IMG/VR virus record: IMGVR_UViG_3300030107_003232
Location: 4,492-68,491 of that record
Strand: one strand, 5' to 3'
Origin: a virus
DNA length: 64,000 nucleotides
The position numbers were made by a program, and so were the translations under genes. Below are positions 35,241 through 51,905 of the stretch, one piece after another; positions within the stretch are counted from its first letter, which is position 1, and every line of letters starts with the position of its first letter. Below the pieces are notes generated by a model. The model ran no database searches. It worked only from the letters and a program-made list of their open reading frames with translations, and was not told the origin of the DNA.

Positions 35241-35813
35241 ATGGAGAATGCCCGTTTAGGCATGGCTCAAGGCATCAAATACTCATCGAGGTCATTGGGG
35301 GGCCACACCACCCAATACCGCCGTCTATGCCGCCTTGCAGGTATCAAAATTGACCTGCCCGAAATCAAGGCCATAAAGCCCATCGGCAAGCCTTGCCGCT
35401 ACAAAGCCTGTAAGGGCCGCAATCATGCCCTTCACGGTGAAAAATGCCCTATCGCATCAGCGCGAGGCAAGACCGGAGGCAAGTCCGGCGAAGGCGATTC
35501 AAAGAGGCGCAACGGTGAAGCAAATGGCCGCTACATTGACGGGCGTAAAAATGCCGTCAAGAAGCAATTGATTTCTCAAGTTATTGTCGGTCAAAAAATC
35601 AACAAGACCGCCCGCGAAATCCTCAACATCAATCCGATTACATGGCTCGATTCAGCCATCACAACCGCCGCAGTAGCGGGTATGCTCGGTGGCGTGCGTG
35701 GTGTCTGTTCCGGTTGCTCTCAATCAATCCCTGCGATTCAGGCACGCAAGATTCACCGTGCCGACATCACACAGAATCCGGCAAGGGTGATATGCGACGC
35801 TTGCGAAGCATGA
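35241..35813 (+). CDS. Basic Zn-finger protein, putative DNA-binding
   Basis: C..C..H..C cluster, GEANGRYIDG motif, CSGC...CDAC. Confidence 0.65.
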   Translation: MENARLGMAQGIKYSSRSLGGHTTQYRRLCRLAGIKIDLPEIKAIKPIGKPCRYKACKGRNHALHGEKCPIASARGKTGGKSGEGDSKRRNGEANGRYIDGRKNAVKKQLISQVIVGQKINKTAREILNINPITWLDSAITTAAVAGMLGGVRGVCSGCSQSIPAIQARKIHRADITQNPARVICDACEA

Positions 35814-35850
35814 TAAAAAAACTTATAAAAAAAACAGGAGAGGACAAAAT

Positions 35851-36111
35851 ATGAACAAAAAGCAAATGAGCGCCGATGAAGACTTTTTACAGTATGCTCG
35901 CAATGATATCGAGAGGCAGATTGCGCTCGGTCAAATGTATGCTATTGATGAAGACCCAAAGCCCGAACATTGTAGTGAAGATGGGCATTGGAACGATGGA
36001 GAGAACTTCTATACTATACTCAATCTATGGGGGCAATACCACTACGATGAAACAAAGGCAGAAGAATTACTCTATAAAATGTTCAAAGAGGAATATCCTC
36101 AATACTTATGA
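35851..36111 (+). CDS. Acidic hypothetical protein
   Basis: 86 aa; motif at -55 and a TATA box. Confidence 0.7.
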   Translation: MNKKQMSADEDFLQYARNDIERQIALGQMYAIDEDPKPEHCSEDGHWNDGENFYTILNLWGQYHYDETKAEELLYKMFKEEYPQYL

Positions 36112-36184
36112 AATGACGGCAAAGAAGATGACGCTTGCGAGGAATAAACGATAGATTCATAAAAAAAAGAAAAGAGGAATAAAT

Positions 36185-36604
36185 ATGACGAGAAGACAAA
36201 TGGGCGCACACGGAGAAATCTGTAAGCGCGTAAGTGGAAAAATAATGATGACTGTTAGGCCACAGCCCGAAGTATTAACGGCTGAGGATTGCGCGATGAT
36301 ACTCGGCTATCGGTGTTTAGGTGGTTGCGGTGGCGGATTCATAGGCGAGCCTAAAACGACCGAACACGGCTTTAGAAGCCCCATAACTCAAGATGCGGTC
36401 GAGGCCATAGCATACTACGAGCGTAAGGGCAAATTAACGCAGAAAAAAGCCCTGCGTTTGTTATCCGACTCATGGGTGCTAACCAATTACACAAATTACA
36501 CCGACATGATAGAGCAGTTCGATGAAGACAATTGGAATCACCGAGCCATTCGGGCATGGGTGCTTAGGGTTTTCCCGAAGTTCTCAACAGGGGTGATTGA
36601 ATGA
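36185..36604 (+). CDS. Hypothetical protein
   Basis: 139 aa; motif at -55. Confidence 0.7.
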   Translation: MTRRQMGAHGEICKRVSGKIMMTVRPQPEVLTAEDCAMILGYRCLGGCGGGFIGEPKTTEHGFRSPITQDAVEAIAYYERKGKLTQKKALRLLSDSWVLTNYTNYTDMIEQFDEDNWNHRAIRAWVLRVFPKFSTGVIE

Positions 36605-36795
36605 AAGTATTAGAGAATGGAATGTATAATGGCGCGTGCTTTGACGGCGAGCGATTTAATGCCGAGCATGATTGGTATGTCGAATCATCGGAGATTGATT
36701 TTGACGGCACTAATTGGGTTCATGTTGCAGTTATATTGTGTTGCTCGGATTGCGACAAAAAAATAGAAACGGATTATTCGTGGGATGTGGAATGA
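36601..36795 (+). CDS. Small acidic Zn-binding protein
   Basis: Overlapping start; C...H...CSDC. Confidence 0.55.
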   Translation: MKVLENGMYNGACFDGERFNAEHDWYVESSEIDFDGTNWVHVAVILCCSDCDKKIETDYSWDVE

Positions 36796-37056
36796 ATGAG
36801 AAGCGAAGATGTATGGTATGGTTCAGACCCATGTATTGATGAGGACGAATTGCCCTCAAGGGTTTTCGACCACGATGTATGCCCCGAATGCGACAAGGCC
36901 ATGCCCGACCAAGACTTAGCGGAGTTTGGTATCGAGGAGTGCGATTGTGTCGAATGCGATGGCTGCGGCGAATGGAAATCCTTTGAAGACTTCTGTAATG
37001 TATCAAATATATGCGATTCATGTTATGAACACGATGACGCTTGCGAGGGCGAATGA
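36796..37056 (+). CDS. Cys-rich acidic protein
   Basis: Several CxxC pairs. Confidence 0.6.
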   Translation: MRSEDVWYGSDPCIDEDELPSRVFDHDVCPECDKAMPDQDLAEFGIEECDCVECDGCGEWKSFEDFCNVSNICDSCYEHDDACEGE

Positions 37057-37090
37057 AAGGATTTAAGAGTCAAGGATAGGTGGAGAAAAT

Positions 37091-37315
37091 ATGGGCAATA
37101 CATGGAAAAGCCGACAACCCGCAAGGGATAAAGACGCACTAAAAAGAATACAGGCACGTTATGACGAGTGGAAATCACAGTTTAGCGATGCTATTCCTAA
37201 TCGTGTAGGTACGACCTACAAATGGAATGAGGCTAAGGTCAAGAATTGGTTTGAATCGTTGCCTCGCACAATTGCAGACCGAGAGAAGGCATTTGTAAAG
37301 GAGATGAAAGAATGA
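37091..37315 (+). CDS. Hypothetical protein
   Basis: Motif at -55; 74 aa. Confidence 0.65.
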   Translation: MGNTWKSRQPARDKDALKRIQARYDEWKSQFSDAIPNRVGTTYKWNEAKVKNWFESLPRTIADREKAFVKEMKE

Positions 37316-37485
37316 GCAAGAAGAAGTTTATTTATCGTAAAATTAAAGTCTTTGAATTAGAGTTTGAAGCATGGTCGAGAGCGCACGCAGAAGAAATGCT
37401 TGAAGATGGTTATTTGATTTACCACGACTATGAAATGGAATGTAAAGAGGATAAAGAAGTGATTGTGTCGAAGGTGATTCGATGA
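37312..37485 (+). CDS. 57-aa hypothetical protein
   Basis: MSKKKFIYRK...; ATGA overlaps at both ends; below the ORF-track cutoff. Confidence 0.6.
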   Translation: MSKKKFIYRKIKVFELEFEAWSRAHAEEMLEDGYLIYHDYEMECKEDKEVIVSKVIR

Positions 37486-37640
37486 GCAACATGAGTTATA
37501 TTAGATTTGAAAATACCTTTAGCGACCTTGAGGATTGTTATTACAATTGGGATGATGACGACATATCAGAAAGAGAAGAAAGGTGGCGAAAGAGATTGTT
37601 GGAATTATGCGAGTCAATCGTTCAATCTTATGGGGAGTGA
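37482..37640 (+). CDS. 52-aa phage-type hypothetical protein
   Basis: MSNMSYIRFENTFSDLEDC resembles the recurrent phage 'MsNMSYcRFeNT' proteins; GGTGA SD. Confidence 0.65.
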   Translation: MSNMSYIRFENTFSDLEDCYYNWDDDDISEREERWRKRLLELCESIVQSYGE

Positions 37641-37827
37641 TGAAGAATGGATGAATATACGAAAGTATTTGATGATGTCGTTCAAGCATTGGTTGGTTTG
37701 AGAGATTCAAGGTTCATTACGCCGCTGCTAACAGAAGAAAAAACTATTCAAGGTTGGATAGACTTTTGTATTGACGCTTGCGAGGACTAAACAATAACCT
37801 TAAAAGAAAACACGGAGAGGAGTAAAT

Positions 37828-38037
37828 ATGAGCAAAGGCACATACAACAAAGAATGGACAGCATACTACGAATACCTTGAGTTCTTGAGGCAATCGGGCG
37901 CGACTAATATGTTCGGCGCAGCACCTTATCTTCAAGACCACTATGGCCTTGAGAAGCGCGAAGCAGAACTTGTTTTGCATTCGTGGATGAAGAACTACAA
38001 TGCACTATTAGAAGACGGGGTGATTTCAAATGATTGA
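37828..38037 (+). CDS. Conserved viral hypothetical protein
   Basis: YLEFLRQSGATNMFGAAPYL motif recurrent in phage small proteins; motif at -55. Confidence 0.75.
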   Translation: MSKGTYNKEWTAYYEYLEFLRQSGATNMFGAAPYLQDHYGLEKREAELVLHSWMKNYNALLEDGVISND

Positions 38038-38314
38038 ACCAATAATTACAGTAAGTAAAGAGATGAAAGAAGCACTACAATATGCTCTTTCAGATATGAG
38101 AAGCCCAAAGATAATGTGTAATTATTTGATTGAGAGATTTCAAGACCAAGCGATAAATGAATGCTCATGGAAATGTCTTTACATATCAAAGAATTACATA
38201 GACATAATCAAAAATTATGAGGTCATTGAGAGGCGGTTTGGGTGCGACGGCGAGTTCAGAAGTAAATTAAACGAACTTCTCAGACAGGAAACATTAGAAG
38301 ATTGGGGGTTTTGA
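38030..38314 (+). CDS. Hypothetical protein
   Basis: GGTGA SD; overlapping start. Confidence 0.6.
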   Translation: MIEPIITVSKEMKEALQYALSDMRSPKIMCNYLIERFQDQAINECSWKCLYISKNYIDIIKNYEVIERRFGCDGEFRSKLNELLRQETLEDWGF

Positions 38315-38315
38315 A

Positions 38316-38753
38316 ATGAGCGAACCGAAATTATATCGAGATAAAATATCAACAGATAGCAGCACACCAACCCACCAATTGCGATATGCAACAGGCTGGC
38401 TAACCGATTATATGCACCACGATAATAACGGGATTAGATACTATACCCCCGAAACTGTGAAGGCTGTAATCAAGAACCTACACGCCGATGTGTCCGATGC
38501 ACAGGCCGCCATATTGAACGACAAATCAACGACGCAAGTTATCTTTGAGATAGGCCGAATGAAGCCCGAAGACGAAAAGCCGATTTGGGCTCATTCATCC
38601 GATAGGGGTTTTTGGATAGGCGACAGAACTAATCTTAACCTAAAAATACTTCAGATGCGAAAGGGGTCGGTTGATGCTATACATTGGCCGAAAGCCCGCG
38701 ACGCTTGCGACGACAATTCCCAAACTTTATTAGAGAGGTTTGAGGAGGAATAA
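38316..38753 (+). CDS. Hypothetical protein
   Basis: 145-aa ORF in operon. Confidence 0.65.
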   Translation: MSEPKLYRDKISTDSSTPTHQLRYATGWLTDYMHHDNNGIRYYTPETVKAVIKNLHADVSDAQAAILNDKSTTQVIFEIGRMKPEDEKPIWAHSSDRGFWIGDRTNLNLKILQMRKGSVDAIHWPKARDACDDNSQTLLERFEEE

Positions 38754-38755
38754 AC

Positions 38756-39745
38756 ATGACGAGCAGAAACTTGCTACCATCATACGCCCTCTTAGGGCAA
38801 GAAGCCAAAGGAACGACCGCCGAAGAAGTCCTTGCTAACGCAGGGCTTGACTTTGAGGTGAAGAAAGCCCCATCGGGCTACATGAACCCTCAAGGGGATT
38901 TCGTAAGACATAGAGGACATACCATTACCTACCGTGCCGATACAGGCGCAGCATTGGGTAGCGTATCATCCTCATACGAGGTATTTCAGAACCATGACGC
39001 ATTGAAAGTCTTTGACCGATTAGTAGGCGAAGGCCGAGCCGAATACGACCGCATCGGTATGATTGACGGCGGGCGAAAGATGTTTGCGAGCATGAAGATG
39101 CCCGAAGGATTCACCGTAGCGGGTTGGGATGATATAGACCAATACCTATACATGATTACATCTCACGATGGTTCAACAGGCGTGCGATATATCCCTGCGA
39201 ATGTCCGTGTAGGATGCACTAATCAATTCGCTTATCTTGACTCTATGCTAAAGCAAGCGGGCATCAATCCTCGCGTGCTATCAAGCCGCCACTCAAGGTA
39301 CATTGAAGGTCGCATAGAGCAAGCAATTCAGGCGTTGAATGTCGTTGATGTCCTCAACGAGCAATTCGCTAACACAGCGGGCGAACTCATGCAGGTCGAA
39401 CTCGATGTAGCGGGTCGAACCGAATTTTACATCGACGCTATGGGCCTCAAGACTGACGAGAAGTTGGTTGATAAGGTGGAGAATCCGTTTGGTCTAACCA
39501 CACGCGGCAACAACACCCTCACACGGCTTCAAGAGTTAGAAGATACCGCTCTCGGATTCGATGACGGCGACATCAACAGCGCATGGGGCGCATTCAATGT
39601 GATTAGCGAATATCTCGACCACGCATGGGTCTATGACCGCAAGGGCGAGAAGGTCAATCAAAAGAGAGTCGAATCGGCCCTACTCGGAACAGGAGCAAGG
39701 CAGAAGGACAAAGCATGGGCGGCAGCCGCACGGTTGGTCGCCTAA
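38756..39745 (+). CDS. DUF932 / TIGR03299-like phage-plasmid protein
   Basis: AGLDFEV, YRADTGAALGSVSSSYEVFQN, GGRKMF, TSHDGS, RVGCTNQ, SAWGAFNVISEYLDH. Confidence 0.85.
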   Translation: MTSRNLLPSYALLGQEAKGTTAEEVLANAGLDFEVKKAPSGYMNPQGDFVRHRGHTITYRADTGAALGSVSSSYEVFQNHDALKVFDRLVGEGRAEYDRIGMIDGGRKMFASMKMPEGFTVAGWDDIDQYLYMITSHDGSTGVRYIPANVRVGCTNQFAYLDSMLKQAGINPRVLSSRHSRYIEGRIEQAIQALNVVDVLNEQFANTAGELMQVELDVAGRTEFYIDAMGLKTDEKLVDKVENPFGLTTRGNNTLTRLQELEDTALGFDDGDINSAWGAFNVISEYLDHAWVYDRKGEKVNQKRVESALLGTGARQKDKAWAAAARLVA

Positions 39746-40110
39746 GATTCACATAAGGGAGTAGGGGGGTTCAAGTAGGTTCGATAAGAAGGCTCAACGT
39801 ATATGCAGCCGACTATTCATCGTTCCCACCCCCTCTCCCACCATCAGATTCACATAAGCAGGGAGGGGAGTTCAACAGTCTTTTACAGGTTGTGTTCGTC
39901 ATTTCATACCTCCATTCTCCCCTCCTTGCACCTATACAATTACAGTAAAAATAACTCAACAACATAAGGGGGTGTAGTGGGAACGAAGGCGAGGCTATAC
40001 ATTTGGGGTAGTCCAAACCGTTATCCAATCGTCTTTACGAGAGCCGTCGGATAAGCCATCATGGTCGGAGAGAGATAAGATAATTACGCCATGCCCACGC
40101 ACCCCCACCT
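39745..40110 (+). ncRNA. Three tandem stem-closed RNA-like units (ACATAA - long stem - variable loop - stem - ACC)
   Basis: Units at about 39757-39843, 39858-39932 and 39968-40109; 11-13 bp G-rich/C-rich closing stems; no plus-strand ORF. Confidence 0.55.
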
Positions 40111-40488
40111 TACAATCAAGAGATGATAAAATGAAGCAAGCAAGAAGACATAGATACATACAGAAATTCAAGGCCCGCGTAAAGTCGGGTGAGAAGAATA
40201 GCCGCATGAAGAAAGGGGATGAATGAATGATTCGTGAGGCCATGAGCGAAATATACGATAACGAGTATGACGCAGTAGTAGCGACCGTGCGCGTGTATGC
40301 AATCGGATTCATGGCTATTATTACGCTAATAGTAAGTGCGGTGTTCCTTTGAAGTGCAACGACCCGACTCATCCAAAAGTAGTAGGCGAGTCCTATTGCC
40401 GTGTGTGCAAGCGAAAGAGCGAAGAAGAAGAATGACGCTTGCGAGGCGTAATCGAAGGGTTCTTAAGCAAACATCCCTACGACAAATC

Positions 40489-40644
40489 ATGGCGAAGGAC
40501 ACAGAAGCCAACGAGGACACAACGCAGAAAGAGGCTATTGAATGGCTTGAGAAGAACGAACACTTATCGTTCTTAGGGCATGGAACACAGGCCCGACATG
40601 AGTGGATGGTTGAATACATGAGAAGGATAGCAAAGGGTGAGTGA
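40489..40644 (+). CDS. Small hypothetical protein
   Basis: Start reassigned to MAKDTE, 55 nt after the motif and downstream of TTCTTAAG. Confidence 0.6.
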   Translation: MAKDTEANEDTTQKEAIEWLEKNEHLSFLGHGTQARHEWMVEYMRRIAKGE

Positions 40645-40647
40645 GAA

Positions 40648-40878
40648 TTGAGAGCAAAGACAATCCCTCATGTGGAATACGAGATATTCCAGCATATACT
40701 TGACGAGATAGATATTTCTATCGTAAAAGAAAGTCTTGTTCCACGCGGAGATAAAATCGCCGAAGAACGATTTGAGAAGGGCGCGGCATCGGCAACGAAT
40801 CTGATTGAGAATCTGATTGAGCGTCGCCTACACAGGCTGCCGCACGACCACCCCGACTTCAAGGAGAGAGAGGCATGA
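40648..40878 (+). CDS. Hypothetical protein
   Basis: 76-aa ORF in operon. Confidence 0.6.
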   Translation: MRAKTIPHVEYEIFQHILDEIDISIVKESLVPRGDKIAEERFEKGAASATNLIENLIERRLHRLPHDHPDFKEREA

Positions 40879-41099
40879 AGCACATTAGAGAGGGATTCGA
40901 TAGAATCTGTGGAACACCTGTACCGGAACAAGGCGGCTACATCAGCGATGCTGAATGGCGCAAGTTGCCGGAGTGTCCGGTATGCTTCGCCAAATACCAG
41001 CCCACGCTTGCGAAGCAAGAACGACAGACTCAAAAGCAAACTGCCCCACCAAAGACTGTAAGACAGGGGCTATACCTGCGACAATATACGAGGCGATGA
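40875..41099 (+). CDS. Small Zn-binding protein
   Basis: H...C...CPVC. Confidence 0.55.
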   Translation: MKHIREGFDRICGTPVPEQGGYISDAEWRKLPECPVCFAKYQPTLAKQERQTQKQTAPPKTVRQGLYLRQYTRR

Positions 41100-41102
41100 A
41101 GA

Positions 41103-41414
41103 ATGAAACCAATTAGTAATATCTCAAAAGTAAGTGGTAAAACCACACGGGTAAAGAACGGCTGGATGATAAAGGCGATAGCACGCTACCTTGACGAAGT
41201 AGGAGAGGCGACGGCTACGCAAATAAAAAACCACGCAAGGAGTAAGGGTAGTAAGCGCAAGGCCAGCGGGTCGAGGCTCACAGGACTAAATGCTCAACAG
41301 ATAAGCGGTCGTCTAAGGATTCACAAATCATTCGCGGCTGAGAAGAAGTTTTGCACTCACTCAAGAAAGGAAATTAACTATTGGAGATTAGTAAATAGGG
41401 AGTTAATTGAATGA
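41103..41414 (+). CDS. Putative winged-HTH protein
   Basis: IARYL...ATATQI...NAQQISGRL...YWRL pattern. Confidence 0.5.
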   Translation: MKPISNISKVSGKTTRVKNGWMIKAIARYLDEVGEATATQIKNHARSKGSKRKASGSRLTGLNAQQISGRLRIHKSFAAEKKFCTHSRKEINYWRLVNRELIE

Positions 41415-41523
41415 GATGCGAAGTATGCAAGGGCAGGGGCTTTACCATAGGATTCAGCGTCGTTGCTATGGAGAGAGAGATGGAACGATGTTGGGCGTGC
41501 AACGGTTGCGGTAAGGTGATTGA

Positions 41524-41763
41524 ATGAGTAAATTTGAGGAAAAAGTAATTGATAAGATTCGTAGCCGAGCAGAAGTCGGTAAGAAAAAATACGGCACGAC
41601 AATGGAACGCGAAGACCTTTCATTGATTGAGTGGCTGACCCATCTTCAAGAGGAACTGCTGGACGCAAGTGTATATGTCGAGCGGCTCATCGAAGATACA
41701 CAATGTCCGATTCATGGTCTTGAGGATGCGGGTTGCCCGTATTGCAGACGCTTGCGAAGATGA
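41524..41763 (+). CDS. Small all-alpha NTP-pyrophosphatase-like viral protein
   Basis: RAEVGKKKYGTT...WLTHLQEELLDASVY (EExxD acidic motif). Confidence 0.55.
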   Translation: MSKFEEKVIDKIRSRAEVGKKKYGTTMEREDLSLIEWLTHLQEELLDASVYVERLIEDTQCPIHGLEDAGCPYCRRLRR

Positions 41764-41801
41764 ATAGAAACCCTTAAAACAGACTGATGCGTGGGATTTT
41801 T

Positions 41802-42071
41802 ATGAGAAAAAAGCGAGTTAGACGGCAGATTGTGGACACCCTGCGAGCGAATCCCGATGGGCTTACGGCAGGTCAAATACTTGACCGACTACCCTCACAA
41901 AGAAATGTGAGCGATGCAAGGCATTTAGCGAACCTGCTACGAGGGATGAAGAACATAAAGAAAAGAAAGGTAAAATTGGGCCATCAACCATTCTATGCCG
42001 CAAAGAAGAATCACGTTGCTACATGGTATGTAAATGAATACTATTACGATGAAGAAGGGGCAGAAATATGA
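41802..42071 (+). CDS. Putative winged-HTH protein
   Basis: IVDTLRANPDGLTAGQILDRL...LANLL; motif at -55. Confidence 0.6.
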   Translation: MRKKRVRRQIVDTLRANPDGLTAGQILDRLPSQRNVSDARHLANLLRGMKNIKKRKVKLGHQPFYAAKKNHVATWYVNEYYYDEEGAEI

Positions 42072-42316
42072 AGAAATACAAAGATTATTTAGCGGAAAAA
42101 GAAAGAGCGGTGAAAGAAGACGACCCTGTGTTTGAATACACAGACAACCATGACTTGAATGAGATGCGGCAGTTGGTCGAAGACATGACGAGATGGATGA
42201 GCGTTGGTTCAAATGCCGTCAAGACTTCACAGAAGATGTTGCACGACTTCAAAGATGTTATGAAGCGAGCAAACGCAATAGTGCGTGATAACAAACTCAA
42301 GCGGGGCGATTACTGA
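42068..42316 (+). CDS. Hypothetical protein
   Basis: 82-aa helical ORF. Confidence 0.6.
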   Translation: MKKYKDYLAEKERAVKEDDPVFEYTDNHDLNEMRQLVEDMTRWMSVGSNAVKTSQKMLHDFKDVMKRANAIVRDNKLKRGDY

Positions 42317-43254
42317 TGGCGAAGCGATTTGTGGAATTAGTAGTGGCTGACTTAGAGGTGCAAGAGGCGAGAGAGTATCACGATAAGGGAACGAAGGCGC
42401 AGAAGCACCCTTACGTCAGATTGCGACACTTAAGAAAGGGTGGGGGTAAATCATTTCCGAACTACGAAATCAAAGATAGATATGTAATGTATCGCCTGTT
42501 GAAATCGTGCGACCCGTCATTGGCCTATGATATGATGATGCAGACCCTGTATCATGTATCTATCGAGGACAGGCCGCCGATGCAAGACATATTGCAGGGC
42601 TACATAGACCATGCTGAAACCGACCGCATAGGCGTTTGGGTTGAGTACGCAAATAAAAAACCACGCGAGGTTGAGGTATGGTATTCATCTGACGACTCGA
42701 TAATCCTTGCCGTTGATAACACCGACTTTACCATGAGCCACTACTTCAACAGCACTTGTAGTTTTATACGGGCTAATTACCTGCCGGACTACACAGAAAG
42801 CAGTAGGACAATGACTATGCAAGGAAAGCAATATCCCGTGATGCAATTTACAAAGAAAGAAGAAGATATTAGTTGGATAACACCGGATAAAAAAATATAC
42901 ACGGCAATAGAAATACTATCCTGTAATAATAAGACTTACATTAAGGGTAAAGTATCTGTTTTCCCTGTACCCTCTAATAGTAGGCATAACTTACAATTCA
43001 CACCAATGAAGGTCTTTGACGGCTTCGCGCATACACTTAATGCGGCTGAGTTAGGGGCGTATCTATCCCGTCTAACTCGCACGCTTGAGTATGCCGCTAC
43101 ACTTAACCTAAACCCTATACTTGGTGAGTTCTCGGACAGTAATAGATTGATGGATTGGATGGAGAATAGCAGACTTGAATATGAAAATGCCCATAAAACT
43201 AAGTCGGGTATTGACGGACTCGTTAATTCTTTCTATAATTCACTTACGGACTGA
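42316..43254 (+). CDS. Hypothetical protein
   Basis: 312-aa ORF; no family recognised. Confidence 0.7.
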   Translation: MAKRFVELVVADLEVQEAREYHDKGTKAQKHPYVRLRHLRKGGGKSFPNYEIKDRYVMYRLLKSCDPSLAYDMMMQTLYHVSIEDRPPMQDILQGYIDHAETDRIGVWVEYANKKPREVEVWYSSDDSIILAVDNTDFTMSHYFNSTCSFIRANYLPDYTESSRTMTMQGKQYPVMQFTKKEEDISWITPDKKIYTAIEILSCNNKTYIKGKVSVFPVPSNSRHNLQFTPMKVFDGFAHTLNAAELGAYLSRLTRTLEYAATLNLNPILGEFSDSNRLMDWMENSRLEYENAHKTKSGIDGLVNSFYNSLTD

Positions 43255-43398
43255 AAGAATAAAACGCACTACTGCGCCCCTATTTCCTATTTCTTCAATT
43301 CTTTCAAAGGTATGTAAGGTATAGGTAAGGTCTTTACATATCTATGAAGAAATTAAAAAAATAAACAACAGGCTCGCAGTATAGCGATTTATTATTTC
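43251..43398. repeat. Long imperfect palindrome, copy B
   Basis: Same arms and GGTAAGG..CTTTAC core as 23897-24086. Confidence 0.7.
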
Positions 43399-43452
43399 CA
43401 CGCTTGCGAGAAGAATAAAAATAATTAAAAGCGTAGTAGGAGAGGAGAAGAT

Positions 43453-43869
43453 ATGCCCCGACCACAGAATAAGCGATTGACGGAACGAGTCTATCATTAC
43501 TTACGAGAACAAGATAAACCTATGACCTCCCACGAAATCGTTTGGTGGTATATGGAGGAGTATGCGGCTGGGACTAAAGGGCCGGATGGATATTCCACGC
43601 GAAGCGGTATGGGGAACAGCCCACCGACACCAAACGCTCTATCTAATCTTATGAGGCGTAGCCTTCTCTTTGAGTGCGTAGGTAAAGAGAATAAAAAGGG
43701 TAAGGCTATTGATTATGAACGGAAAGATGGTAATAGTGTTAATCTATGGGTTGCGCGTCCACTTGATATTGTAGTTGAAAGGGCTATCGCAAGTAAAAGG
43801 CCCGTTAAAAAATATCCCGCATTTTTGCAAAAGGAAATGAGGAGGGTTTTAGATGCCGAAGATAATTGA
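43453..43869 (+). CDS. Putative winged-HTH protein
   Basis: VYHYLREQDKPMTSHEIV...PTPNALSNLM. Confidence 0.55.
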   Translation: MPRPQNKRLTERVYHYLREQDKPMTSHEIVWWYMEEYAAGTKGPDGYSTRSGMGNSPPTPNALSNLMRRSLLFECVGKENKKGKAIDYERKDGNSVNLWVARPLDIVVERAIASKRPVKKYPAFLQKEMRRVLDAEDN

Positions 43870-44623
43870 TAGTAGGGGCGATACAGACTTTGTATGGCTT
43901 GAAGACATACACTACGAAGATAGCACATTAGTTGCGTTCTATCAGAACGAACAAGGCTTTGCCTCATTCATAGCAGGGGCAAGCATTGTAGGCGAGCATA
44001 AGCCCGTATGTAGGATTCTATCTAAGTTGCATCAAGTCGAGGCCATGAACACTATCCCTGCGCCGATTGTTCCCGAATGGCGAATCTATGAAATGTATAA
44101 CGAGGATGGTCGCCGTTATTTTATCCTAAGAATAAATCACGCATACATACCATCGAATACACGGAATAAAGCATGGCTTTACAATTATCCCGTATTCCGT
44201 GATATAGTTAGCGTGCTATCTGAAAAAGGAGTTAATGAATTAGTTTATCTTACGGCAAATATAATGCAAGACTTCATCTTTAGCGAGCAGGTGCAGATAC
44301 CTTCTGATGAATTGATTGTCTATGACTATGATGAGAAGGATGATGCGCTACACTTCACGGATGGAACGGTCATGGCTATGACCGAATTACCTATACCGCC
44401 GCCATCGTGGATTCTATGTAGTGCCTTTGAAAACTTTTGCGCTAATACTATTCGTGGTAATTGGTTAGTGATTGCAGCAAATACAAATACCACTTTCATA
44501 AATGAAAGAGAGGCGGACAGATTGATAGAGTATCTTAGAGATACACACGCACTACTTCACAACGAAATGTATAAAGCCGAGTTAATGGAGGTTCTTTATG
44601 AAGCGGAGGGTGAGATGGTATGA
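43853..44623 (+). CDS. Hypothetical protein, possibly PAC2-like fold
   Basis: Weak resemblance only (QGFASFIA; RDIVSVLSEKGVNELVYLTA). Confidence 0.35.
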   Translation: MPKIIDSRGDTDFVWLEDIHYEDSTLVAFYQNEQGFASFIAGASIVGEHKPVCRILSKLHQVEAMNTIPAPIVPEWRIYEMYNEDGRRYFILRINHAYIPSNTRNKAWLYNYPVFRDIVSVLSEKGVNELVYLTANIMQDFIFSEQVQIPSDELIVYDYDEKDDALHFTDGTVMAMTELPIPPPSWILCSAFENFCANTIRGNWLVIAANTNTTFINEREADRLIEYLRDTHALLHNEMYKAELMEVLYEAEGEMV

Positions 44624-45957
44624 CGTTCAATGTATTCGATAAAACAAATGAGTTTGCGCGAAGAAATTATTTCATAGGTGTTGAGGATAAAATCCCCATC
44701 TTTCTATGTAGTGTGGGCGGACATATATTCAATGCGCTGAACAAATGTAGCCGCTGCGACTTCGACCCCGACAGCCCATTGGTGGATGAAGAAGAAGACT
44801 TCATCATCGAGAACTGTCCGCTACGGCACGACAACATACCGTTTTACACGCCGATGTCGCAGTTGCCGGACACGCGCATACACATACTAATGCGTGGCGC
44901 TAAGGGTTCGGGTAAATCTGTCTTAATACTAATGTTCCTTGCAGAAGGAACAGGTTTAGTCTATTCTTCTAATGCTGACTTAGGACAGGGTATGCGAACC
45001 ATGATGGGCGCGAACTCTATCACAGAAGCAGGTATGTTCGGCTCGGTGGATGAAGAAGGCGAGATAGCAGGGCGACCTATCGCCCGTGAGATGTGCGGCG
45101 GATTCTTGGGCTTTGAGGAGTTTTCGTCTATGTCTGATGCGTCTAAAAAAGACCACAGTTTAGACATGAAGAATCAGTTGCTAACTTCTCTCGATAACGG
45201 CAGGGTGCAGAAGGCCATGCGTAATGGTTGGGTGAATTACACCACACGCTACACCGTATGGGCTGGAACGCAGCCAGCACGATTTGAATTGGATTCGGGG
45301 CTTGACCGAAGATTCTTCATCATAGATATTGAGATGACTCCCGAAAAGGAGAGGCAATACAAACTCGCACAGCACGCACAGGCAAACATGAGTGTGTCTG
45401 AGAGAACTGATTTGGCTAATCTTAACATACAAATAAAAGATTGGATTCGCCAGCGAATGCACCAAGCGGTTGCTAACCCGCCAACAGGAATCATCTTCGA
45501 CGACGACATAATGGAGTGGATAGACCGCCCCGATGTTCGCTCTTTTGAGGCCGACCTGTTCCGCCGTATGTGTATTGGCTACGCCATGATGCAGCCGGAA
45601 TATCGAGGGGGGCAACCGTTGATTATCCGACTTGATGATACTCTTAGGGAAATACTAAATCAATCGCTTGCTATGCGAAGGCGAGTCATGGATGCAGATG
45701 TCGAACTAATCCGTGCGGCGTTTTGGATGAAAGATGTTCCGAAGTCGCAACTGCTCAAGGAGATTTCACGCATGATTACGCAAGGCGATTATCAGACCGC
45801 TAAGAGATGGCTCATAGAGAATCTTGAAGGACAGGGGTGGTATCAAGAGGTTGAACCAAGCGTTAAAAGGCGTGGTCGTAAGGGAGTTATATGCCGCTTC
45901 GGGCCGTTGTCTGAGGCGAGCGCACCCGTGAATTGGGGGGATAAAAATGCCGAATAG
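44620..45957 (+). CDS. MCM-like AAA+ helicase
   Basis: HILMRGAKGSGKS Walker A, SITEAGMFGSV, GFEEF Walker B, SLDNGRVQKA, GLDRRF Arg finger. Confidence 0.75.
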   Translation: MTFNVFDKTNEFARRNYFIGVEDKIPIFLCSVGGHIFNALNKCSRCDFDPDSPLVDEEEDFIIENCPLRHDNIPFYTPMSQLPDTRIHILMRGAKGSGKSVLILMFLAEGTGLVYSSNADLGQGMRTMMGANSITEAGMFGSVDEEGEIAGRPIAREMCGGFLGFEEFSSMSDASKKDHSLDMKNQLLTSLDNGRVQKAMRNGWVNYTTRYTVWAGTQPARFELDSGLDRRFFIIDIEMTPEKERQYKLAQHAQANMSVSERTDLANLNIQIKDWIRQRMHQAVANPPTGIIFDDDIMEWIDRPDVRSFEADLFRRMCIGYAMMQPEYRGGQPLIIRLDDTLREILNQSLAMRRRVMDADVELIRAAFWMKDVPKSQLLKEISRMITQGDYQTAKRWLIENLEGQGWYQEVEPSVKRRGRKGVICRFGPLSEASAPVNWGDKNAE

Positions 45958-46315
45958 AAGATATAAAAACCGATTGACTAAGCGCGGTAAGTGGGATAGA
46001 AGCAAGGCTTTGGAGTGCGCCGCAAGACATCTCGTCAAAGAGGACAGACCATTGAGTGCCGCTACTGTGTATGATAACATGAGATTCAAGAACAACACGA
46101 AGACGGGTGCTATCGGCAATCTTTATAGAAGCCATAGAACCGCTCAAACATACGGGCAGGTTTTGGGGAGGATGCTACGATGCCCTGCTTTCAAGAAAGA
46201 GAAGCGGGATGGAAAGGGTCCTTATGTTTTCTCTTGCGATAAAAATACTTATGATGAATGGTGGCCGACCGACCCACTAAGAGGTGAAGCCTATGCGAAG
46301 CAAAAGAGAGATTGA
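45947..46315 (+). CDS. Basic putative winged-HTH protein
   Basis: ARHLVKEDRPLSAATVYD...TYGQVLGRM. Confidence 0.5.
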   Translation: MPNRRYKNRLTKRGKWDRSKALECAARHLVKEDRPLSAATVYDNMRFKNNTKTGAIGNLYRSHRTAQTYGQVLGRMLRCPAFKKEKRDGKGPYVFSCDKNTYDEWWPTDPLRGEAYAKQKRD

Positions 46316-46910
46316 AACGAGATTAGCCACCGAAAATGACGCATTCGCCATTGAGGTGTTGCGTTGGGTTCTTGCGGGCGGTTGTGAAATGTGCGACCAT
46401 CCCGAAAAGCGCGAACTTGAGATGGAGGTTTATGGTGGAGATGTATCGCCGAGTTATCTTGAGGCTAAATATAATTGGCCGGATGGTTGCGTGATGAATC
46501 ACATGGATGCACACCTTGACTATGACCCCAAAGAGGCGAAGCACATTGAGAATGCTCGCTCGCAAAGTATAAACACTTTAGATTCAGCCGAAGATATTGT
46601 GAATAGGATTACGGCATACCTTGACGAGTTAGAAGAACTCAAGGAGGCGCAGGGCGGAATCACATCAGACTTCGTGGCTGATGCCTCTCGGCTTATCGCA
46701 CAGGCTAACACATCTCTAAAGTTAGTAGGCACGCTCAAGCGTGAGATAGGCGTTGATTCTCAATTGCTGCTTGCACACACGCAGTTAAACCAAGTTAGCC
46801 GCATTCTCGTTGAGGTGCTTGCAGACCAGCCTAAACTGCTTGACGATGTGGAGAAGAAACTCAACCGTCTGTCCGCACCGATTGATGTTGATTACGAGGT
46901 GATTGAATAA
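46293..46910 (+). CDS. Zn-HTH/coiled-coil protein (terminase-small-subunit-like architecture)
   Basis: CEMCDHP...NHMDAH followed by long helices. Confidence 0.4.
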   Translation: MRSKREIETRLATENDAFAIEVLRWVLAGGCEMCDHPEKRELEMEVYGGDVSPSYLEAKYNWPDGCVMNHMDAHLDYDPKEAKHIENARSQSINTLDSAEDIVNRITAYLDELEELKEAQGGITSDFVADASRLIAQANTSLKLVGTLKREIGVDSQLLLAHTQLNQVSRILVEVLADQPKLLDDVEKKLNRLSAPIDVDYEVIE

Positions 46911-47440
46911 TGGGACACCACGAAGGATTCGGGAGAGGCAAGGGCTTTACTGCGAAAGACCCGCAGCCACCTAATGATTTAGTAATGACCCCTATACCTG
47001 TCGCAATACAGACTATCAATCTTTATGATATTCCGGCGGATTCAAAAATACTTGACCCATGTAGGGGAGAAGGGGCATTCTATGATAACTACCCCACTAA
47101 TTGTGAAAAGGACTTTTGCGAGATAACAGAAGGCAAAGACTTCTTCGATTATGAAGGTCATGTTGATTGGATTATTACTAACCCACCATACAGTATTCTT
47201 GATGAGTTTTTACTAAAGTCATTTGAAGTTAGCGATAATGTAGTATTTCTAATACCATTAAGTAAAATGTTCTCAAGTTTTAGGCGAATTAGACAAATAC
47301 TCGATTACGGAAATATAGTATCAATAGATTTAGTCAGCGCAAGTAAATGTGGTTTTCCGTTTGGTTTTCCCGCCTGTGCTTTTTACATGAAGCGGGGCTA
47401 TGAGGGCGAAACCCTGATTACAGAATGGCGGGGTGATTGA
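46910..47440 (+). CDS. DNA amino-methyltransferase (orphan)
   Basis: ILDPCRGEGAF SAM motif and IITNPPYS catalytic motif. Confidence 0.85.
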   Translation: MGHHEGFGRGKGFTAKDPQPPNDLVMTPIPVAIQTINLYDIPADSKILDPCRGEGAFYDNYPTNCEKDFCEITEGKDFFDYEGHVDWIITNPPYSILDEFLLKSFEVSDNVVFLIPLSKMFSSFRRIRQILDYGNIVSIDLVSASKCGFPFGFPACAFYMKRGYEGETLITEWRGD

Positions 47441-47598
47441 ATGAAGAAGAATGAGATAACCTATCAAGAATGGACTTGGAAGCCGCGCGGCACTTGTTGG
47501 AAAGACTACATACGACTACAAAGAAAGATGCGTAGGTTAATCGTGGCTTCTCTAATATCTCTTACCGTAAATGTAGTTTTATTGGGGGTAATAATACT

Positions 47599-47850
47599 AT
47601 GAGAAAGTGGCGCAGTAAGCCGACTAAGTATCTCGCTACACGCGCGATAACTAAAGAGGAACTACCGCGCCTGTTTGATGCTATGAAAGAGGATGGTCTT
47701 ATCGCAATAATAACTGCGGAGGGCATCAAGTGGTATCATGGTGATTATAGAGTTAGTAAAAAAGTAGTTGGTGGTGTATGGTCTTTGAGTCCTTCGCAGA
47801 TGAAGCGAGTAATAGATTACATTTACGCGCACGACCCATTCGTGGAGTGA
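47599..47850 (+). CDS. Hypothetical protein
   Basis: 83-aa ORF. Confidence 0.6.
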   Translation: MRKWRSKPTKYLATRAITKEELPRLFDAMKEDGLIAIITAEGIKWYHGDYRVSKKVVGGVWSLSPSQMKRVIDYIYAHDPFVE

Positions 47851-47854
47851 TAAG

Positions 47855-48514
47855 ATGATTATATTCACGGATGACGAATCTCCATTTAGGGACGATAACG
47901 AAGTGTTCATGTATGGTTCAATTGATACTGTGCCGGATAGAAAGGACACTACATATTTCTTACAAAGCGATAAGTTCTCGTCCGAAGATGTGCTAAGTTG
48001 GTCGCCAATTGTTCAGAATAGATTAGTAATCATTACACGCAAAGCCCCTAAGTTGAGTAAGGCCGCTAAACAATTGTGCGTTGTGCATGATAATCTTAAG
48101 GGTAAAAGTAATGATGATACCTTTCTTATTGTTAAGGCAATAATAAATTGGGCAGACCGTGAACGAGTTGCGTCTGTATTTAATAACTCACCCATTCCTC
48201 TTTTGTTGTGGTTCTTGAAAGGGAACGAAACCGACATAGATGTGTGGAGAAGGTTCGCTAAGGTGCAGTATATTTTACCGGAAAAGTATCTTGAGGCATC
48301 AATCATCTATGGAATCACTCCGTCAAGAAAACGTGTATCGTGGCCTAAGAAGAAAGGTAAGATAAAAGAAAGACCGGAATTATTCAAAGCCGATGATAAG
48401 CATTGGGAAGTCATTTTAGAAAACTCTATAAGCGTGGCTAATAAAGTTAGGGAGTCAGGCGACATACCGAAGGGTATGACTCGCCGTAAGGTGGCTTCGC
48501 AAACATGGTTTTAG
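47855..48514 (+). CDS. Hypothetical protein
   Basis: 219-aa ORF with GGAGTGA SD. Confidence 0.65.
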   Translation: MIIFTDDESPFRDDNEVFMYGSIDTVPDRKDTTYFLQSDKFSSEDVLSWSPIVQNRLVIITRKAPKLSKAAKQLCVVHDNLKGKSNDDTFLIVKAIINWADRERVASVFNNSPIPLLLWFLKGNETDIDVWRRFAKVQYILPEKYLEASIIYGITPSRKRVSWPKKKGKIKERPELFKADDKHWEVILENSISVANKVRESGDIPKGMTRRKVASQTWF

Positions 48515-48696
48515 TAGGATTTCTCGGTGGGGTTATTCTATTATATTTATTAGGGTACGTTTGTATTGTTTTGGATAAATACCTTTTCCCTAAAAATAAC
48601 CATAATTTTTCGGCGCAAAATTCGACGCTTGCGAAGAATGATGATGATTCGTTTATAAACGGCATAATGTGGGCTGATGTAGGCAACGACTTATAA
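48505..48696 (+). CDS. Small membrane protein
   Basis: N-terminal TM helix. Confidence 0.5.
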   Translation: MVLVGFLGGVILLYLLGYVCIVLDKYLFPKNNHNFSAQNSTLAKNDDDSFINGIMWADVGNDL

Positions 48697-51608: not shown

Positions 51609-51905
51609 ATGAGTGCGAGTTGGAGGGCCGTTGGCGAATTTGTCCTTCTAAAGAAGGATAATGTAGTTAATGAGATGGGACTTATCGTTGATACTAACTA
51701 TTGTGTTAAAAGTATTGGTGATACAGTTCCTCTTAGGTTGAACAGAAACGACATGGTAGTCGTTAATGATGGTGCAGCCATAACTCCGCTAACGGCCTCC
51801 AACCGCCTCAATCTATTTATTGTGCATTACAAAGACATAGTGGCGAGAGATGTCGCCGAAGAAATATCTTATGTCGGTGATGCTATGCACGATGATTTTA
51901 TCTGA
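51609..51905 (+). CDS. groES: GroES-like co-chaperonin
   Basis: 98 aa directly before GroEL; RAVGEFVLL, GLI, VKSIG, IVHYKDIVA match the Cpn10 pattern. Confidence 0.7.
   Translation: MSASWRAVGEFVLLKKDNVVNEMGLIVDTNYCVKSIGDTVPLRLNRNDMVVVNDGAAITPLTASNRLNLFIVHYKDIVARDVAEEISYVGDAMHDDFI

What the first reader, a model, noticed from the sequence alone, without database searches (positions are those of the whole stretch)
39745..40110. Tandem trio of stem-closed small-RNA units with tRNA-like ends behind the DUF932 gene
Seen: three units share a leader ACATAA (AGATTCACATAAG in the first two), a G-rich arm, an unrelated interior, the complementary C-rich arm, then ACC. The arms are GGGAGTAGGGGG/CCCCCTCTCCC-ACCA, GCAGGGAGGGGAG/CTCCCCTCCTTGC-ACCT and GGGGGTGTAGTGGG/CCCACGCACCCCC-ACCT. 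Stem sequences differ while pairing is kept. Established: a 12-13 bp helix plus NCC(A) resembles the acceptor/T-arm minihelix handled by RNase P, RNase Z and the CCA-adding enzyme. Inference: an array processed by host tRNA machinery into stable RNAs with variable guide-like or decoy interiors. Unit 1 TCGTTCCCAC (39820-39829) is also complementary to unit 3 GTGGGAACGA (39977-39986).
Basis: partly seen in the sequence, partly recalled or inferred. Interest (0 to 1): 0.8.

Follow-up and report, generated by a model that had tools for sequence, protein, structure and literature searches.

The report
tRNA-end-mimicking small RNA array, archaeal virus
A marine archaeal virus carries, behind one of its genes, a conserved row of small folded RNAs whose ends look like the acceptor end of a tRNA, which suggests that the virus borrows the host's tRNA-trimming enzymes to make its own regulatory RNAs.

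Summary
Observation confirmed. The gap 39746-40130 behind the DUF932 gene holds three + strand units. Each has the leader UCACAUAA, an 11-13 bp G/C helix starting with G, a class-specific interior and a single-stranded ACC(A/U) tail.

The same architecture, 1-4 units, follows the gene in 40 of 49 related loci examined (43 distinct units). All 30 distinct arm pairs keep at least 11 pairs. In a covariance-model alignment 18 of 20 pairs show compensatory changes (0 of 500 shuffles). G.U pairs occur but no A.C mismatches, so the + strand folds.

ARAGORN finds no tRNA and Rfam no family. Helix length (38 of 43 units have 12-13 bp), invariant G1-C72, unpaired A-1/A73 and UUNAA after the helix (23 of 43) mimic a tRNA acceptor/T-arm minihelix. 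Cutting by RNase P, tRNase Z and the CCA enzyme is inference; RNA data are contig-level only.

The interiors form three conserved classes, not free guides. The unit 2 loop can pair with the DUF932 start region in this clade only. The unit 3 core also occurs elsewhere without the handle. The unit 1/unit 3 complementarity is not conserved.

This scan noted tRNA-like arrays in two other archaeal viruses before. Verdict: new variant of a known kind.

The parts
38701..38710 (+). promoter-associated motif ACGCTTGCGA, 46 nt before the DUF932 ATG; start of the transcription unit that holds the array
   Evidence: 10 exact + strand copies between 35.8 and 48.6 kb, 0 of 100 shuffles reach the count. Each is followed by a TATA-like box and an ATG about 55 nt after the motif start. 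There is no copy between 38711 and 40434.
38756..39745 (+). DUF932 gene (329 aa), function unknown
   Evidence: Pfam PF06067 8.7e-33, TIGR03299 3.6e-44, phrog_1221. The AlphaFold model (pLDDT 82.3) has no informative PDB neighbour.
39745..39843 (+). Unit 1 (class A): leader 39745-39756, 5' arm 39757-39768, UUCAA 39770-39774, inner hairpin GGCU/AGCC 39791-39810 with loop CAACGUAUAUGC, UUCAUCGU 39816-39823, 3' arm 39829-39839, tail ACCA 39840-39843
   Evidence: RNAalifold: 6 of 20 pairs compensatory; R1 98.5 bits.
39846..39933 (+). Unit 2 (class B): leader 39846-39857, 5' arm 39858-39870, UUCAA 39871-39875, pyrimidine-rich loop with GUUCGUCAU 39894-39902 and CCUCC 39909-39913, 3' arm 39917-39929, tail ACCU 39930-39933
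   Evidence: A39869G with T39918C is seen together in relatives' contigs and in L001/L002.
39962..40110 (+). Unit 3 (class C): leader 39962-39967, 5' arm 39968-39981, multi-hairpin core (GGCGAGGCUA..UAGUCCAAACC; GGAUAAGCCA; GGUCGGAGAGAGAUAAGA 40063-40080), 3' arm 40094-40106, tail ACCU 40107-40110
   Evidence: The core recurs in 12 viral loci, with or without the G/C helix and ACC.
40131..40352 (+). two small ORFs (31 aa, very basic; 41 aa) that follow the array without a new promoter motif
   Evidence: Read. No family in PHROGs. The next motif copy is at 40435.

Best explanation
The gap holds three members of a family of virus-encoded structured RNAs. They are transcribed on the + strand as part of the DUF932 transcription unit (motif at 38701; the next one at 40435).

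Anatomy. Each unit is built as follows: an A-rich leader (UCACAUAA); a helix of 11-13 G/C-rich pairs that always starts G-C and usually has one bulged base on its 5' strand; a class-specific interior; the C-rich return strand; and a single-stranded ACC(A/U).

What it imitates. This outer part copies the coaxial acceptor/T-arm helix of a tRNA. The features are 12 bp, a closing G-C followed by UUNAA like the start of a T loop, and then discriminator A73, C74, C75 and (A76).

Most likely mechanism:
1. Host RNase P cuts in front of G1.
2. tRNase Z or exonucleases, together with the CCA-adding enzyme, finish the 3' end.
3. The row is thereby cut into stable small RNAs with tRNA-like ends.
4. The same cuts define the 3' end of the DUF932 mRNA and the 5' end of the downstream message.

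The handle is generic; the interior is the working part.
- Class A (unit 1) is a three-helix fold with a conserved 12-nt loop (..CGUAUAUG.).
- Class B (unit 2) shows a pyrimidine-rich loop with CCUCC and GUUCGUCAU. It can pair with a Shine-Dalgarno box plus start codon. In this genome the best such partner is the DUF932 start itself, so it is probably a translational repressor or timer.
- Class C (unit 3) is a 110-200 nt multi-hairpin core that related viruses also carry without the handle.

Shown: the anatomy, the strand, conservation, covariation, and the place inside a transcription unit. Inferred: processing, stability, and every function of the interiors.
For: Family and covariation.
- 40 of 49 loci examined have 1-4 units behind DUF932 or a small ORF after it. 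There are 43 distinct unit sequences.
- All 30 distinct arm combinations keep 11-15 pairs. Non-cognate arm pairs average 3.9 pairs, and 4.1% of 850 reach 11.
- On the R1 alignment, 98.3% of cells are paired, 18 of 20 pairs show double changes, and 0 of 500 shuffles reach any measure. Slid partners give 56-72% pairing.

Strand. There are 35 G.U/U.G pairs and no A.C mismatches in the closing helices.

tRNA-end likeness.
- 38 of 43 helices have 12 or 13 pairs.
- Column G1-C72 is G-C in 31 of 31 rows. Position -1 is A in 28 of 31 rows, and position 73 is A in 28 of 31.
- C74 and C75 are C in 29 of 31 rows each. Position 76 is A or U in 30 of 31.
- In a tail-blind scan, ACC follows 55 of 91 strong stems. 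The rest are register shifts, cross-unit pairings or stems in coding DNA.
- UUNRA follows the helix in 23 of 43 units (read by eye). Columns 22-26 read U26, U27, N, A25 and A25 of 31 rows.

Need for endonucleolytic release.
- Spacers are as short as 14-15 nt. No promoter motif lies between 38711 and 40434.
- In L002, L005 and L008 the array ends just before the next motif copy.

Not coding. The conserved UUCAUCG falls in different frames in the window and in L001.

Class B pairing. The DUF932 start region is the 2nd best of 730 start regions for the unit 2 loop. It is the best of the 8 motif-driven genes (-24.2 against -10.8 to -18.8 kcal/mol).

Precedent. tRNA-like structures and long hairpins with a 3' RCC are RNase P and RNase Z substrates (passages of PMC4919922).
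Against: - There are no RNA ends. The only RNA data are Logan contigs of four marine metatranscriptomes from two studies. They come from relatives at depth 4-5, the same as over DUF932, and they run across unit borders (39655-39962; 39790-39963 and onward). DNA carry-over is not excluded.
- There is no D arm or anticodon arm.
- The T-loop-like UUNRA is missing in 20 of 43 units, including all of class C.
- Helices of 15-16 bp occur in 3 of 43 units.
- Class C cores in AT-richer relatives have A/U-rich closing helices and no ACC tail, so the core works without the handle.
- The five complete relatives searched carry no true tRNA genes to compare flanks with.
- Whether host tRNA genes encode CCA is unknown, because the host genomes could not be reached.
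- The class B antisense reading is not family-wide. The cognate rank is 121-402 of 730 in 9 of 22 loop/start pairs, and a swap test shows no general cognate advantage.
- The strong purine bias of the 5' arms (G-C 384 against C-G 34) is not explained by tRNA mimicry.
Confidence: 0.4

Rival explanations
1. Unprocessed cis-acting mRNA elements. The G/C hairpins stay on the 3' end, or in the intercistronic part, of the DUF932 transcript. There they block 3'-5' exonucleases, and through the class B loop they pair back onto the transcript's own start region to tune DUF932 translation. Leader and ACC would then be protein-binding or spacing signals unrelated to tRNA enzymes.
For: - The array follows the stop codon by 12 nt and has no promoter of its own.
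- RNA-library contigs bridge the gene end, U1 and U2 at the same depth as the gene.
- The DUF932 start is the best early-gene partner of the U2 loop.
- In three clades the array sits at the end of the transcription unit.
Against: - Simple stabilisers do not need three conserved interior classes, an invariant G1-C72, an unpaired A/A border and an invariant ACC.
- In the window two ORFs follow the array in the same unit, so it is not a terminal stabiliser there.
- The pairing with the start region does not co-vary across the family.
Confidence: 0.25
2. Decoys or sponges. The units, processed or not, present many tRNA-like acceptor ends. These would soak up a host factor that acts on tRNA 3' ends or acceptor stems, for example a defence toxin that modifies or cuts tRNA ends, or the CCA-adding or RNase P machinery itself.
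For: The evidence is the same end mimicry as in the best explanation. The copy number varies from 1 to 4, as expected for a dosage-dependent sponge. The scan noted anticodon-less tRNA look-alike arrays in two other archaeal viruses (AI notes, not tested here).
Against: Conserved, class-specific interiors with covariation are not needed for an end decoy. No defence or counter-defence protein family was found among the five neighbours tested (PADLOC). No host data are available.
Confidence: 0.1
3. DNA-level elements. The imperfect inverted repeats would fold in single-stranded DNA, like attC-type recombination sites or replication or packaging signals, and would mark mobile mini-cassettes.
For: The number and order of units vary. 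The class C core occurs with different closing helices and permuted modules, and as a tandem duplication in L193. A bulged base sits on one strand in 30 of 43 units.
Against: - The interiors are 24-200 nt and non-coding, so there is no cargo.
- Inner helices co-vary like RNA.
- The elements always lie on the coding strand inside a transcription unit.
- No recombinase was seen among the neighbouring proteins tested.
Confidence: 0.05

Closest known systems
t-elements and other tRNA-like processing signals inside mRNAs (plant mitochondria: PMC1920247, seen as search listing and abstract; named in a passage of PMC4919922)
   Same: A stripped-down acceptor/T-arm-like structure without decoding function. 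It sits at the end of a protein-coding message, where RNase P and RNase Z would create mRNA and small-RNA ends.
   Different: - Here the host is an archaeal virus.
- The mimic is a single continuous 12-13 bp helix, with the whole functional interior inserted where the T loop would close.
- The units come in tandem rows of 1-4.
- The interiors form three conserved classes.
- Cleavage is not shown.
MALAT1/MEN-beta tRNA-like structures giving mascRNA (passage of PMC4919922)
   Same: A tRNA-like element at the 3' end of a longer transcript is cut by RNase P and RNase Z. This releases a small, CCA-ended RNA and defines the upstream 3' end.
   Different: Those are full cloverleaf mimics in vertebrate nuclei. 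Here there is no D arm or anticodon arm, the ACC is genome-encoded, and the setting is a prokaryotic virus.
Hairpin-type non-tRNA RNase P substrates: pre-4.5S RNA and the C4 antisense RNA precursor of phages P1/P7 (listed in a passage and reference list of PMC4919922; structural details recalled, not from a call)
   Same: A 5' leader, a long terminal helix formed by the two ends of the RNA, and a short single-stranded C-rich 3' tail. For C4 the parallel goes further: it is a phage-encoded antisense RNA that masks a ribosome-binding site, like the reading of class B.
   Different: No sequence or covariance-model relation was found (no Rfam hit). The hosts are archaeal. The units form an array, and there are several interior classes.
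tRNA look-alike arrays noted by this scan in two other archaeal-type viruses (notes e1-6065260, e1-3777327; AI notes, not checked here)
   Same: Non-decoding tRNA-like units in tandem in a non-coding stretch of an archaeal virus.
   Different: By their descriptions those are cloverleaf-like look-alikes, one set with a real tRNA and an RNA ligase gene nearby. Here only the top half is mimicked and no tRNA gene is present.

Membership tests
tRNA (cloverleaf; ARAGORN, Rfam RF00005) | D arm and anticodon arm forming a cloverleaf | tested here: not met
   ARAGORN finds 0 genes in the window and in 54 related loci. There is no RF00005 match at E up to 10 in 39500-40400.
tRNA (cloverleaf; ARAGORN, Rfam RF00005) | 12-bp coaxial acceptor plus T-stem helix starting with pair 1-72 | tested here: met
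   38 of 43 distinct units have 12 or 13 pairs; the others have 11 (2 units), 15 (2) and 16 (1). The first pair is G-C in 31 of 31 rows.
tRNA (cloverleaf; ARAGORN, Rfam RF00005) | T loop: closing G53-C61, then U54 U55 N56 R57 A58 | tested here: inconclusive
   UUNRA directly follows the helix in 23 of 43 units. It is absent in class C and in the L005, L008, L023 and L038 types. The loop is not closed after 7 nt; the whole interior is inserted there.
tRNA (cloverleaf; ARAGORN, Rfam RF00005) | single-stranded discriminator plus CC(A) at the 3' end | tested here: met
   ACC follows all 43 units. A tail-blind scan gives ACC for 55 of 91 stems, and the rest are register shifts or unrelated stems. 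The fourth base is A in 13 and U in 17 of 31 rows.
t-elements / tRNA-like processing signals in mRNAs | located at an mRNA end inside a transcription unit | tested here: met
   The array starts 12 nt after the DUF932 stop. There is no promoter motif between 38711 and 40434.
t-elements / tRNA-like processing signals in mRNAs | cleaved by RNase P (5') and RNase Z (3') | not testable with these tools
   Only assembled RNA contigs were available, and they carry no end information.
Rfam families (4227 models, including C4 antisense RNA, SRP, Y RNA-like and marine metagenome motifs) | covariance-model match at the gathering score | tested here: not met
   There are 0 matches in the window at gathering score. 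At E up to 10 there are only two microRNA noise hits. There are 0 matches at E up to 1 in L186, L188, L190 and L193.
archaeal H/ACA guide RNA | ACA (ANA) box directly 3' of the lower stem | tested here: not met
   The tail is A-C-C, with C at the third place in 29 of 31 rows and A in none. K-turn and pseudouridylation pocket were not tested.

The most novel reading that the evidence does not exclude
Viruses of the ocean's abundant planktonic archaea (Poseidoniales) use a portable 'tRNA top-half handle': leader, a 12-bp G-start helix and ACC. With it the host's tRNA end-maturation enzymes excise, cap with CCA and stabilise a set of unrelated regulatory RNA modules from ordinary mRNAs. One module (class B) is an anti-Shine-Dalgarno/anti-start RNA that shuts off translation of the gene it is cut from and perhaps of host messages. 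This would be a natural counterpart of the engineered 'tRNA scaffold'. It would also be the first regulatory RNA system described for these viruses.
Probability: 0.3. Interest if true: 0.8.

Novelty: new variant of a known kind. Interest (0 to 1): 0.65.

Why it matters
In the magrovirus papers I searched I found no mention of a non-coding RNA, although the hosts are among the most abundant archaea of the surface ocean. This family has unusually clean comparative support: dozens of natural variants with compensatory changes. It also offers one crisp, cheap test. Classes B and C encode ACC-U, so RNA reads that end in ACC-A would show CCA-enzyme completion.

If the handle works as proposed, tRNA-processing enzymes would be a general entry point for viral small-RNA biogenesis in archaea. 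It would also link the still unexplained DUF932 family to an RNA-based control circuit, and give a ready-made natural scaffold for expressing RNAs in archaea.

Tried and rejected
- **Protein-coding reading.** The 54-aa + strand ORF 39803-39967 and a minus-strand mini-ORF starting at the complement of CAT 39900-39902 were both considered. I rejected them because conserved nucleotides fall in different frames in the window and in L001, and because both arms co-vary.
- **A target inside the virus.** The pattern GGAG N4-12 ATGACGAMC matches only the unit itself. ATGACGAAC has one other copy, at 28474 on the minus strand. By energy alone the best-of-730 duplex of the U2 loop is no better than that of shuffled loops (20 shuffles).
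- **U1/U3 complementarity.** There are 10 nt in the window and L021 (2 and 0 of 200 shuffles reach this). L001 has 8 nt at another place (29 of 200). L004, L030 and L032 have 6 nt (188-199 of 200). It is not conserved.
- **14-nt motif scans of viral contigs.** I used those 231 loci only as background.
- **RNA evidence.** The four RNA runs hold small shares (0.05-0.12) as contigs of relatives. They give no ends, no strand and no enrichment. Parts without cover say nothing.
- **Host side.** The DUF932 alignment found no relative in genome contigs. The chaperonin query found one unrelated bacterial locus. So no Poseidoniales genome was searched for copies, targets or tRNA flanks.
- **Model R1 on relatives.** It found nothing in five complete related records. 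It does not detect the L008-type unit known to be in one of them, so this says little.
- **tRNA genes.** No RF00005 match in those five records.
- **DUF932 function.** There is no solved relative by sequence. Foldseek's best hit is E 3.7e-3 at TM 0.18. VIA-align's best is Z 5.2. There is no PADLOC family.
- **Triple-helix idea** (pyrimidine loop laid on the purine arm). I dropped it by inspection: L023 and L025 keep CCUCC but have no GGAGG in the arm.
- **Loci left out of the unit count.**
  - L007 is the window's own record.
  - L010-L014 were read by eye; no units, DUF932 47-49% identical.
  - L049, L052 and L055-L058 have the gene cut at the contig end.
  - L061-L066 have 30-35% identity.
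- **Duplicate contigs.** Some loci are the same contig held in two collections (L003/L028, L004/L031, L005/L045). Counts of distinct sequences avoid this.
- **Spurious rows.** The alignment contains two spurious minus-strand rows (L004 -, L025 -).
- **Literature.** Supplements of papers were not opened. Not in print as far as these searches go:
  - 'magrovirus': 22 papers. Term searches for tRNA, non-coding, DUF932, small RNA and intergenic inside PMC5434244 and PMC11706807 found nothing relevant.
  - tRNA-like / minihelix / archaeal virus.
  - DUF932: 13 papers.
  - Poseidoniales or Marine Group II with RNA terms.
Full report
**What the window is**

The window is 64 kb of a 68.5-kb, 99% complete virus record. 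It has a portal gene, a family B DNA polymerase and a thermosome-type chaperonin. That gene set matches what the magrovirus papers describe for viruses of Marine Group II archaea; I saw the abstract and one passage of PMC5434244. The name 'magrovirus-like' is my label, not a tested classification. Genes from about 34 to 61 kb lie on the + strand.

- Behind the DUF932 gene (38756-39745; PF06067 8.7e-33) lies a 385-nt stretch without a convincing ORF.
- As + strand RNA each unit closes with its predicted helix. The z-scores are -3.0, -3.8 and -2.8. The reverse complements fold less well, and for unit 3 no better than chance (z -0.56).
- ARAGORN finds no tRNA in the window. Rfam finds no family at gathering score, and only microRNA noise at E up to 10.
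- A strict helix-plus-ACC scan of both strands finds only these three outside a collagen-like repeat gene, plus one stem that lies inside ORF 51609-51905.

**It is a conserved family**

- With the DUF932 protein and an alignment of it, I fetched 13 viral and 52 metagenome loci.
- In 40 of the 49 sources examined, a script found 1-4 units just downstream of the gene.
- The 9 sources without units are accounted for as follows:
  - six have 1-100 nt of downstream DNA;
  - two have a DUF932 only 36-37% identical;
  - L037 has the next gene directly after the stop.
- Loci whose DUF932 is 47-49% identical have no units (by eye).
- In L004 and L006 a roughly 50-aa ORF sits between DUF932 and the array.
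- There are 43 distinct unit sequences and 30 distinct combinations of arms.
- Every cognate arm combination keeps 11-15 pairs. Non-cognate combinations average 3.9 pairs, and 4.1% of 850 reach 11.
- A scan that did not ask for any tail shows that ACC follows 55 of 91 strong stems in these regions. The remainder are register shifts, cross-unit pairings of the same G- and C-rich arms, or stems in coding DNA.
- A covariance model built from seven class A units recovers units of classes A and B, and one class C unit, in 52 sources. In the window it finds only units 1 and 2.
- On that alignment:
  - 98.3% of cells are paired;
  - 18 of 20 pairs show changes on both sides;
  - no shuffle of 500 reaches any measure;
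  - sliding the partners drops pairing to 56-72%.

  The alignment is fitted to the model and holds two spurious minus-strand rows, so these figures lean towards the structure.
- In 1.9 Mb of unrelated viral DNA the detector fires about 27 times per Mb of strand.

**Strand and nature**

The closing helices contain 35 G.U or U.G pairs and no A.C mismatch. This fits folding of the + strand only.

The promoter-associated motif ACGCTTGCGA occurs 10 times on the + strand (0 of 100 shuffles reach the count). One copy lies before DUF932 (38701) and the next at 40435, with none in between.

So the array, and two small ORFs after it, belong to the DUF932 transcription unit. In L002, L005 and L008 the array ends just before the next motif copy. 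Spacers between units can be as short as 14-15 nt, which leaves no room for separate promoters.

**The ends look like a tRNA's top half**

- 38 of the 43 helices have 12 or 13 pairs.
- In the model alignment the first pair is G-C in 31 of 31 rows.
- The base before the helix is A in 28 of 31 rows, and the base after it is A in 28 of 31. The helix therefore cannot extend.
- C, C and then A or U follow.
- Directly after the 5' strand, 23 of 43 units read UUNRA behind a closing G-C pair. This is like positions 53-58 of a T arm.
- The rest of the unit is inserted where a T loop would close.
- 30 of 43 units have one bulged base on the 5' strand.
- Purines sit almost only on that strand (G-C 384 against C-G 34). 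I cannot explain either feature.

That RNase P, RNase Z and the CCA enzyme recognise such helices is established knowledge. A review passage lists pre-4.5S RNA, phage regulatory RNAs, t-elements and the MALAT1 tRNA-like structure as substrates (PMC4919922).

**The interiors are three conserved classes**

- Class A (unit 1):
  - It has an inner helix and a hairpin whose 12-nt loop carries CGUAUAUG, followed by UUCAUCG. Six of 20 predicted pairs show compensatory changes.
  - Its tail is ACCA, except ACCU in L034.
- Class B (unit 2):
  - It has a pyrimidine-rich loop of 24-106 nt. Most loops carry CCUCC and GUYCGUC(GUC)AU, in either order.
- In the window the loop is antisense to GGAGG, a spacer, and AUGACGA.
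  - The DUF932 start region is its 2nd best partner of 730 start regions.
  - It is also the best of the 8 motif-driven genes.
  - Across the family the cognate start ranks in the top 8% in 13 of 22 cases and is unremarkable in 9.
  - Swapping loops and starts between clades shows no general cognate advantage.
  - I read this as a generic anti-Shine-Dalgarno loop. In the window's clade it has extra complementarity to DUF932.
- Class C (unit 3):
  - It is a 110-200 nt multi-hairpin core.
  - Its 18-nt signature occurs in 12 viral loci.
  - Four of them have other G/C closing helices plus ACC. One of these lies right behind a chaperonin gene.
  - Five of them have A/U-rich closing helices, no ACC and a permuted order of modules. 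One is a tandem duplication.
  - So handle and core are separable modules, and the linkage to DUF932 is not exclusive.

**RNA data**

Four marine metatranscriptome runs from two studies hold 5-12% of the sampled words, as assembled contigs. When laid on the window, they prove to be relatives of the L002 type at depth 4-5, the same as over DUF932.

They run from the gene end through units 1 and 2 (39655-39962). One continues into the neighbour's next gene. They also carry A39869G together with T39918C, which keeps a pair of unit 2.

This is compatible with co-transcription. It shows neither processing nor its absence, and DNA carry-over is possible.

**Surroundings**

DUF932 remains without function. 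There is no solved relative by sequence. A confident model (pLDDT 82.3) has no informative structural neighbour. There is no defence family. Neighbouring ORFs have no Pfam or PHROG family.

No tRNA genes occur in 54 related loci or in five complete related records. The host genomes could not be reached.

**Verdict**

The shared outer module mimics the acceptor/T-arm helix and NCC(A) end of tRNA. The most likely mechanism is excision and end-completion by host tRNA-maturation enzymes, with class-specific interiors doing the work. I give it 0.4, because no RNA ends are known.

The closest known things are t-elements, mascRNA-type tRNA-like structures and hairpin-type RNase P substrates. This family differs from them in several ways:
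- the host domain;
- the minimal continuous helix with the interior placed in the T-loop position;
- the array form;
- the interchangeable cores.

The scan has noted tRNA look-alike arrays in two other archaeal viruses, and the class C core in another genome. I did not test those notes.

Noticed in passing
window 35797-48634 (+): There are ten exact copies of ACGCTTGCGA. Each is followed by a TATA-like box, a purine-rich GGAGAGGAG-like box and an ATG about 55 nt after the motif start, so this is a regulon-type promoter signature of the early or middle genes. The G-rich 5' arms of the RNA units resemble the purine-rich boxes.
   Followed up: partly
window 51621-51801 (+): A 15-pair stem closes a 181-nt stretch and is followed by ACCG, just before the chaperonin gene. 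It lies inside ORF 51609-51905 (98 aa), so it is probably coding and not a member of the family.
   Followed up: partly
window 40131-40226 (+): A 31-aa, very basic ORF (about 12 K/R) starts 21 nt after unit 3. By eye a similar ORF follows the array in L001 and lies nearby in L008. It has no family in PHROGs and could be an RNA-binding peptide.
   Followed up: no
L185, L187, L190, L193, L194: The class C core occurs in AT-richer related viruses. There it is closed by A/U-rich helices with a conserved UACAA(A)G bulge on the 5' side, has no ACC tail and has its modules in another order. L193 carries two tandem copies together with a duplicated gene end. Note e1-6173118 of the scan seems to describe such a pair in another genome.
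   Followed up: partly
L188 6389-6546 (-) and L186 2464-2681, L191 6306-6501, L195 3054-3271: Units with the G/C helix and ACC occur outside the DUF932 context. In L188 the unit lies directly behind a Cpn60_TCP1 chaperonin gene, whose stop codon sits in the unit's leader. In L186, L191 and L195 they lie behind small ORFs of no known family.
   Followed up: partly
L004 3984-4133, L006 617-769: A conserved ORF of about 50 aa (shared ..MTL.EWLD.C..) lies between DUF932 and the array in some relatives. The array follows it with the usual leader.
   Followed up: no
all 43 units: Purines lie almost only on the 5' strand of the closing helices (G-C 384 against C-G 34; A-U 61 against U-A 28). In addition, 30 of 43 units have exactly one bulged base on that strand. 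Neither feature is explained.
   Followed up: partly
window 10232-15004 (-): A 1590-aa ORF with long collagen-like GXY repeats (GC 0.51-0.59) produces many spurious stems in repeat and helix scans.
   Followed up: no
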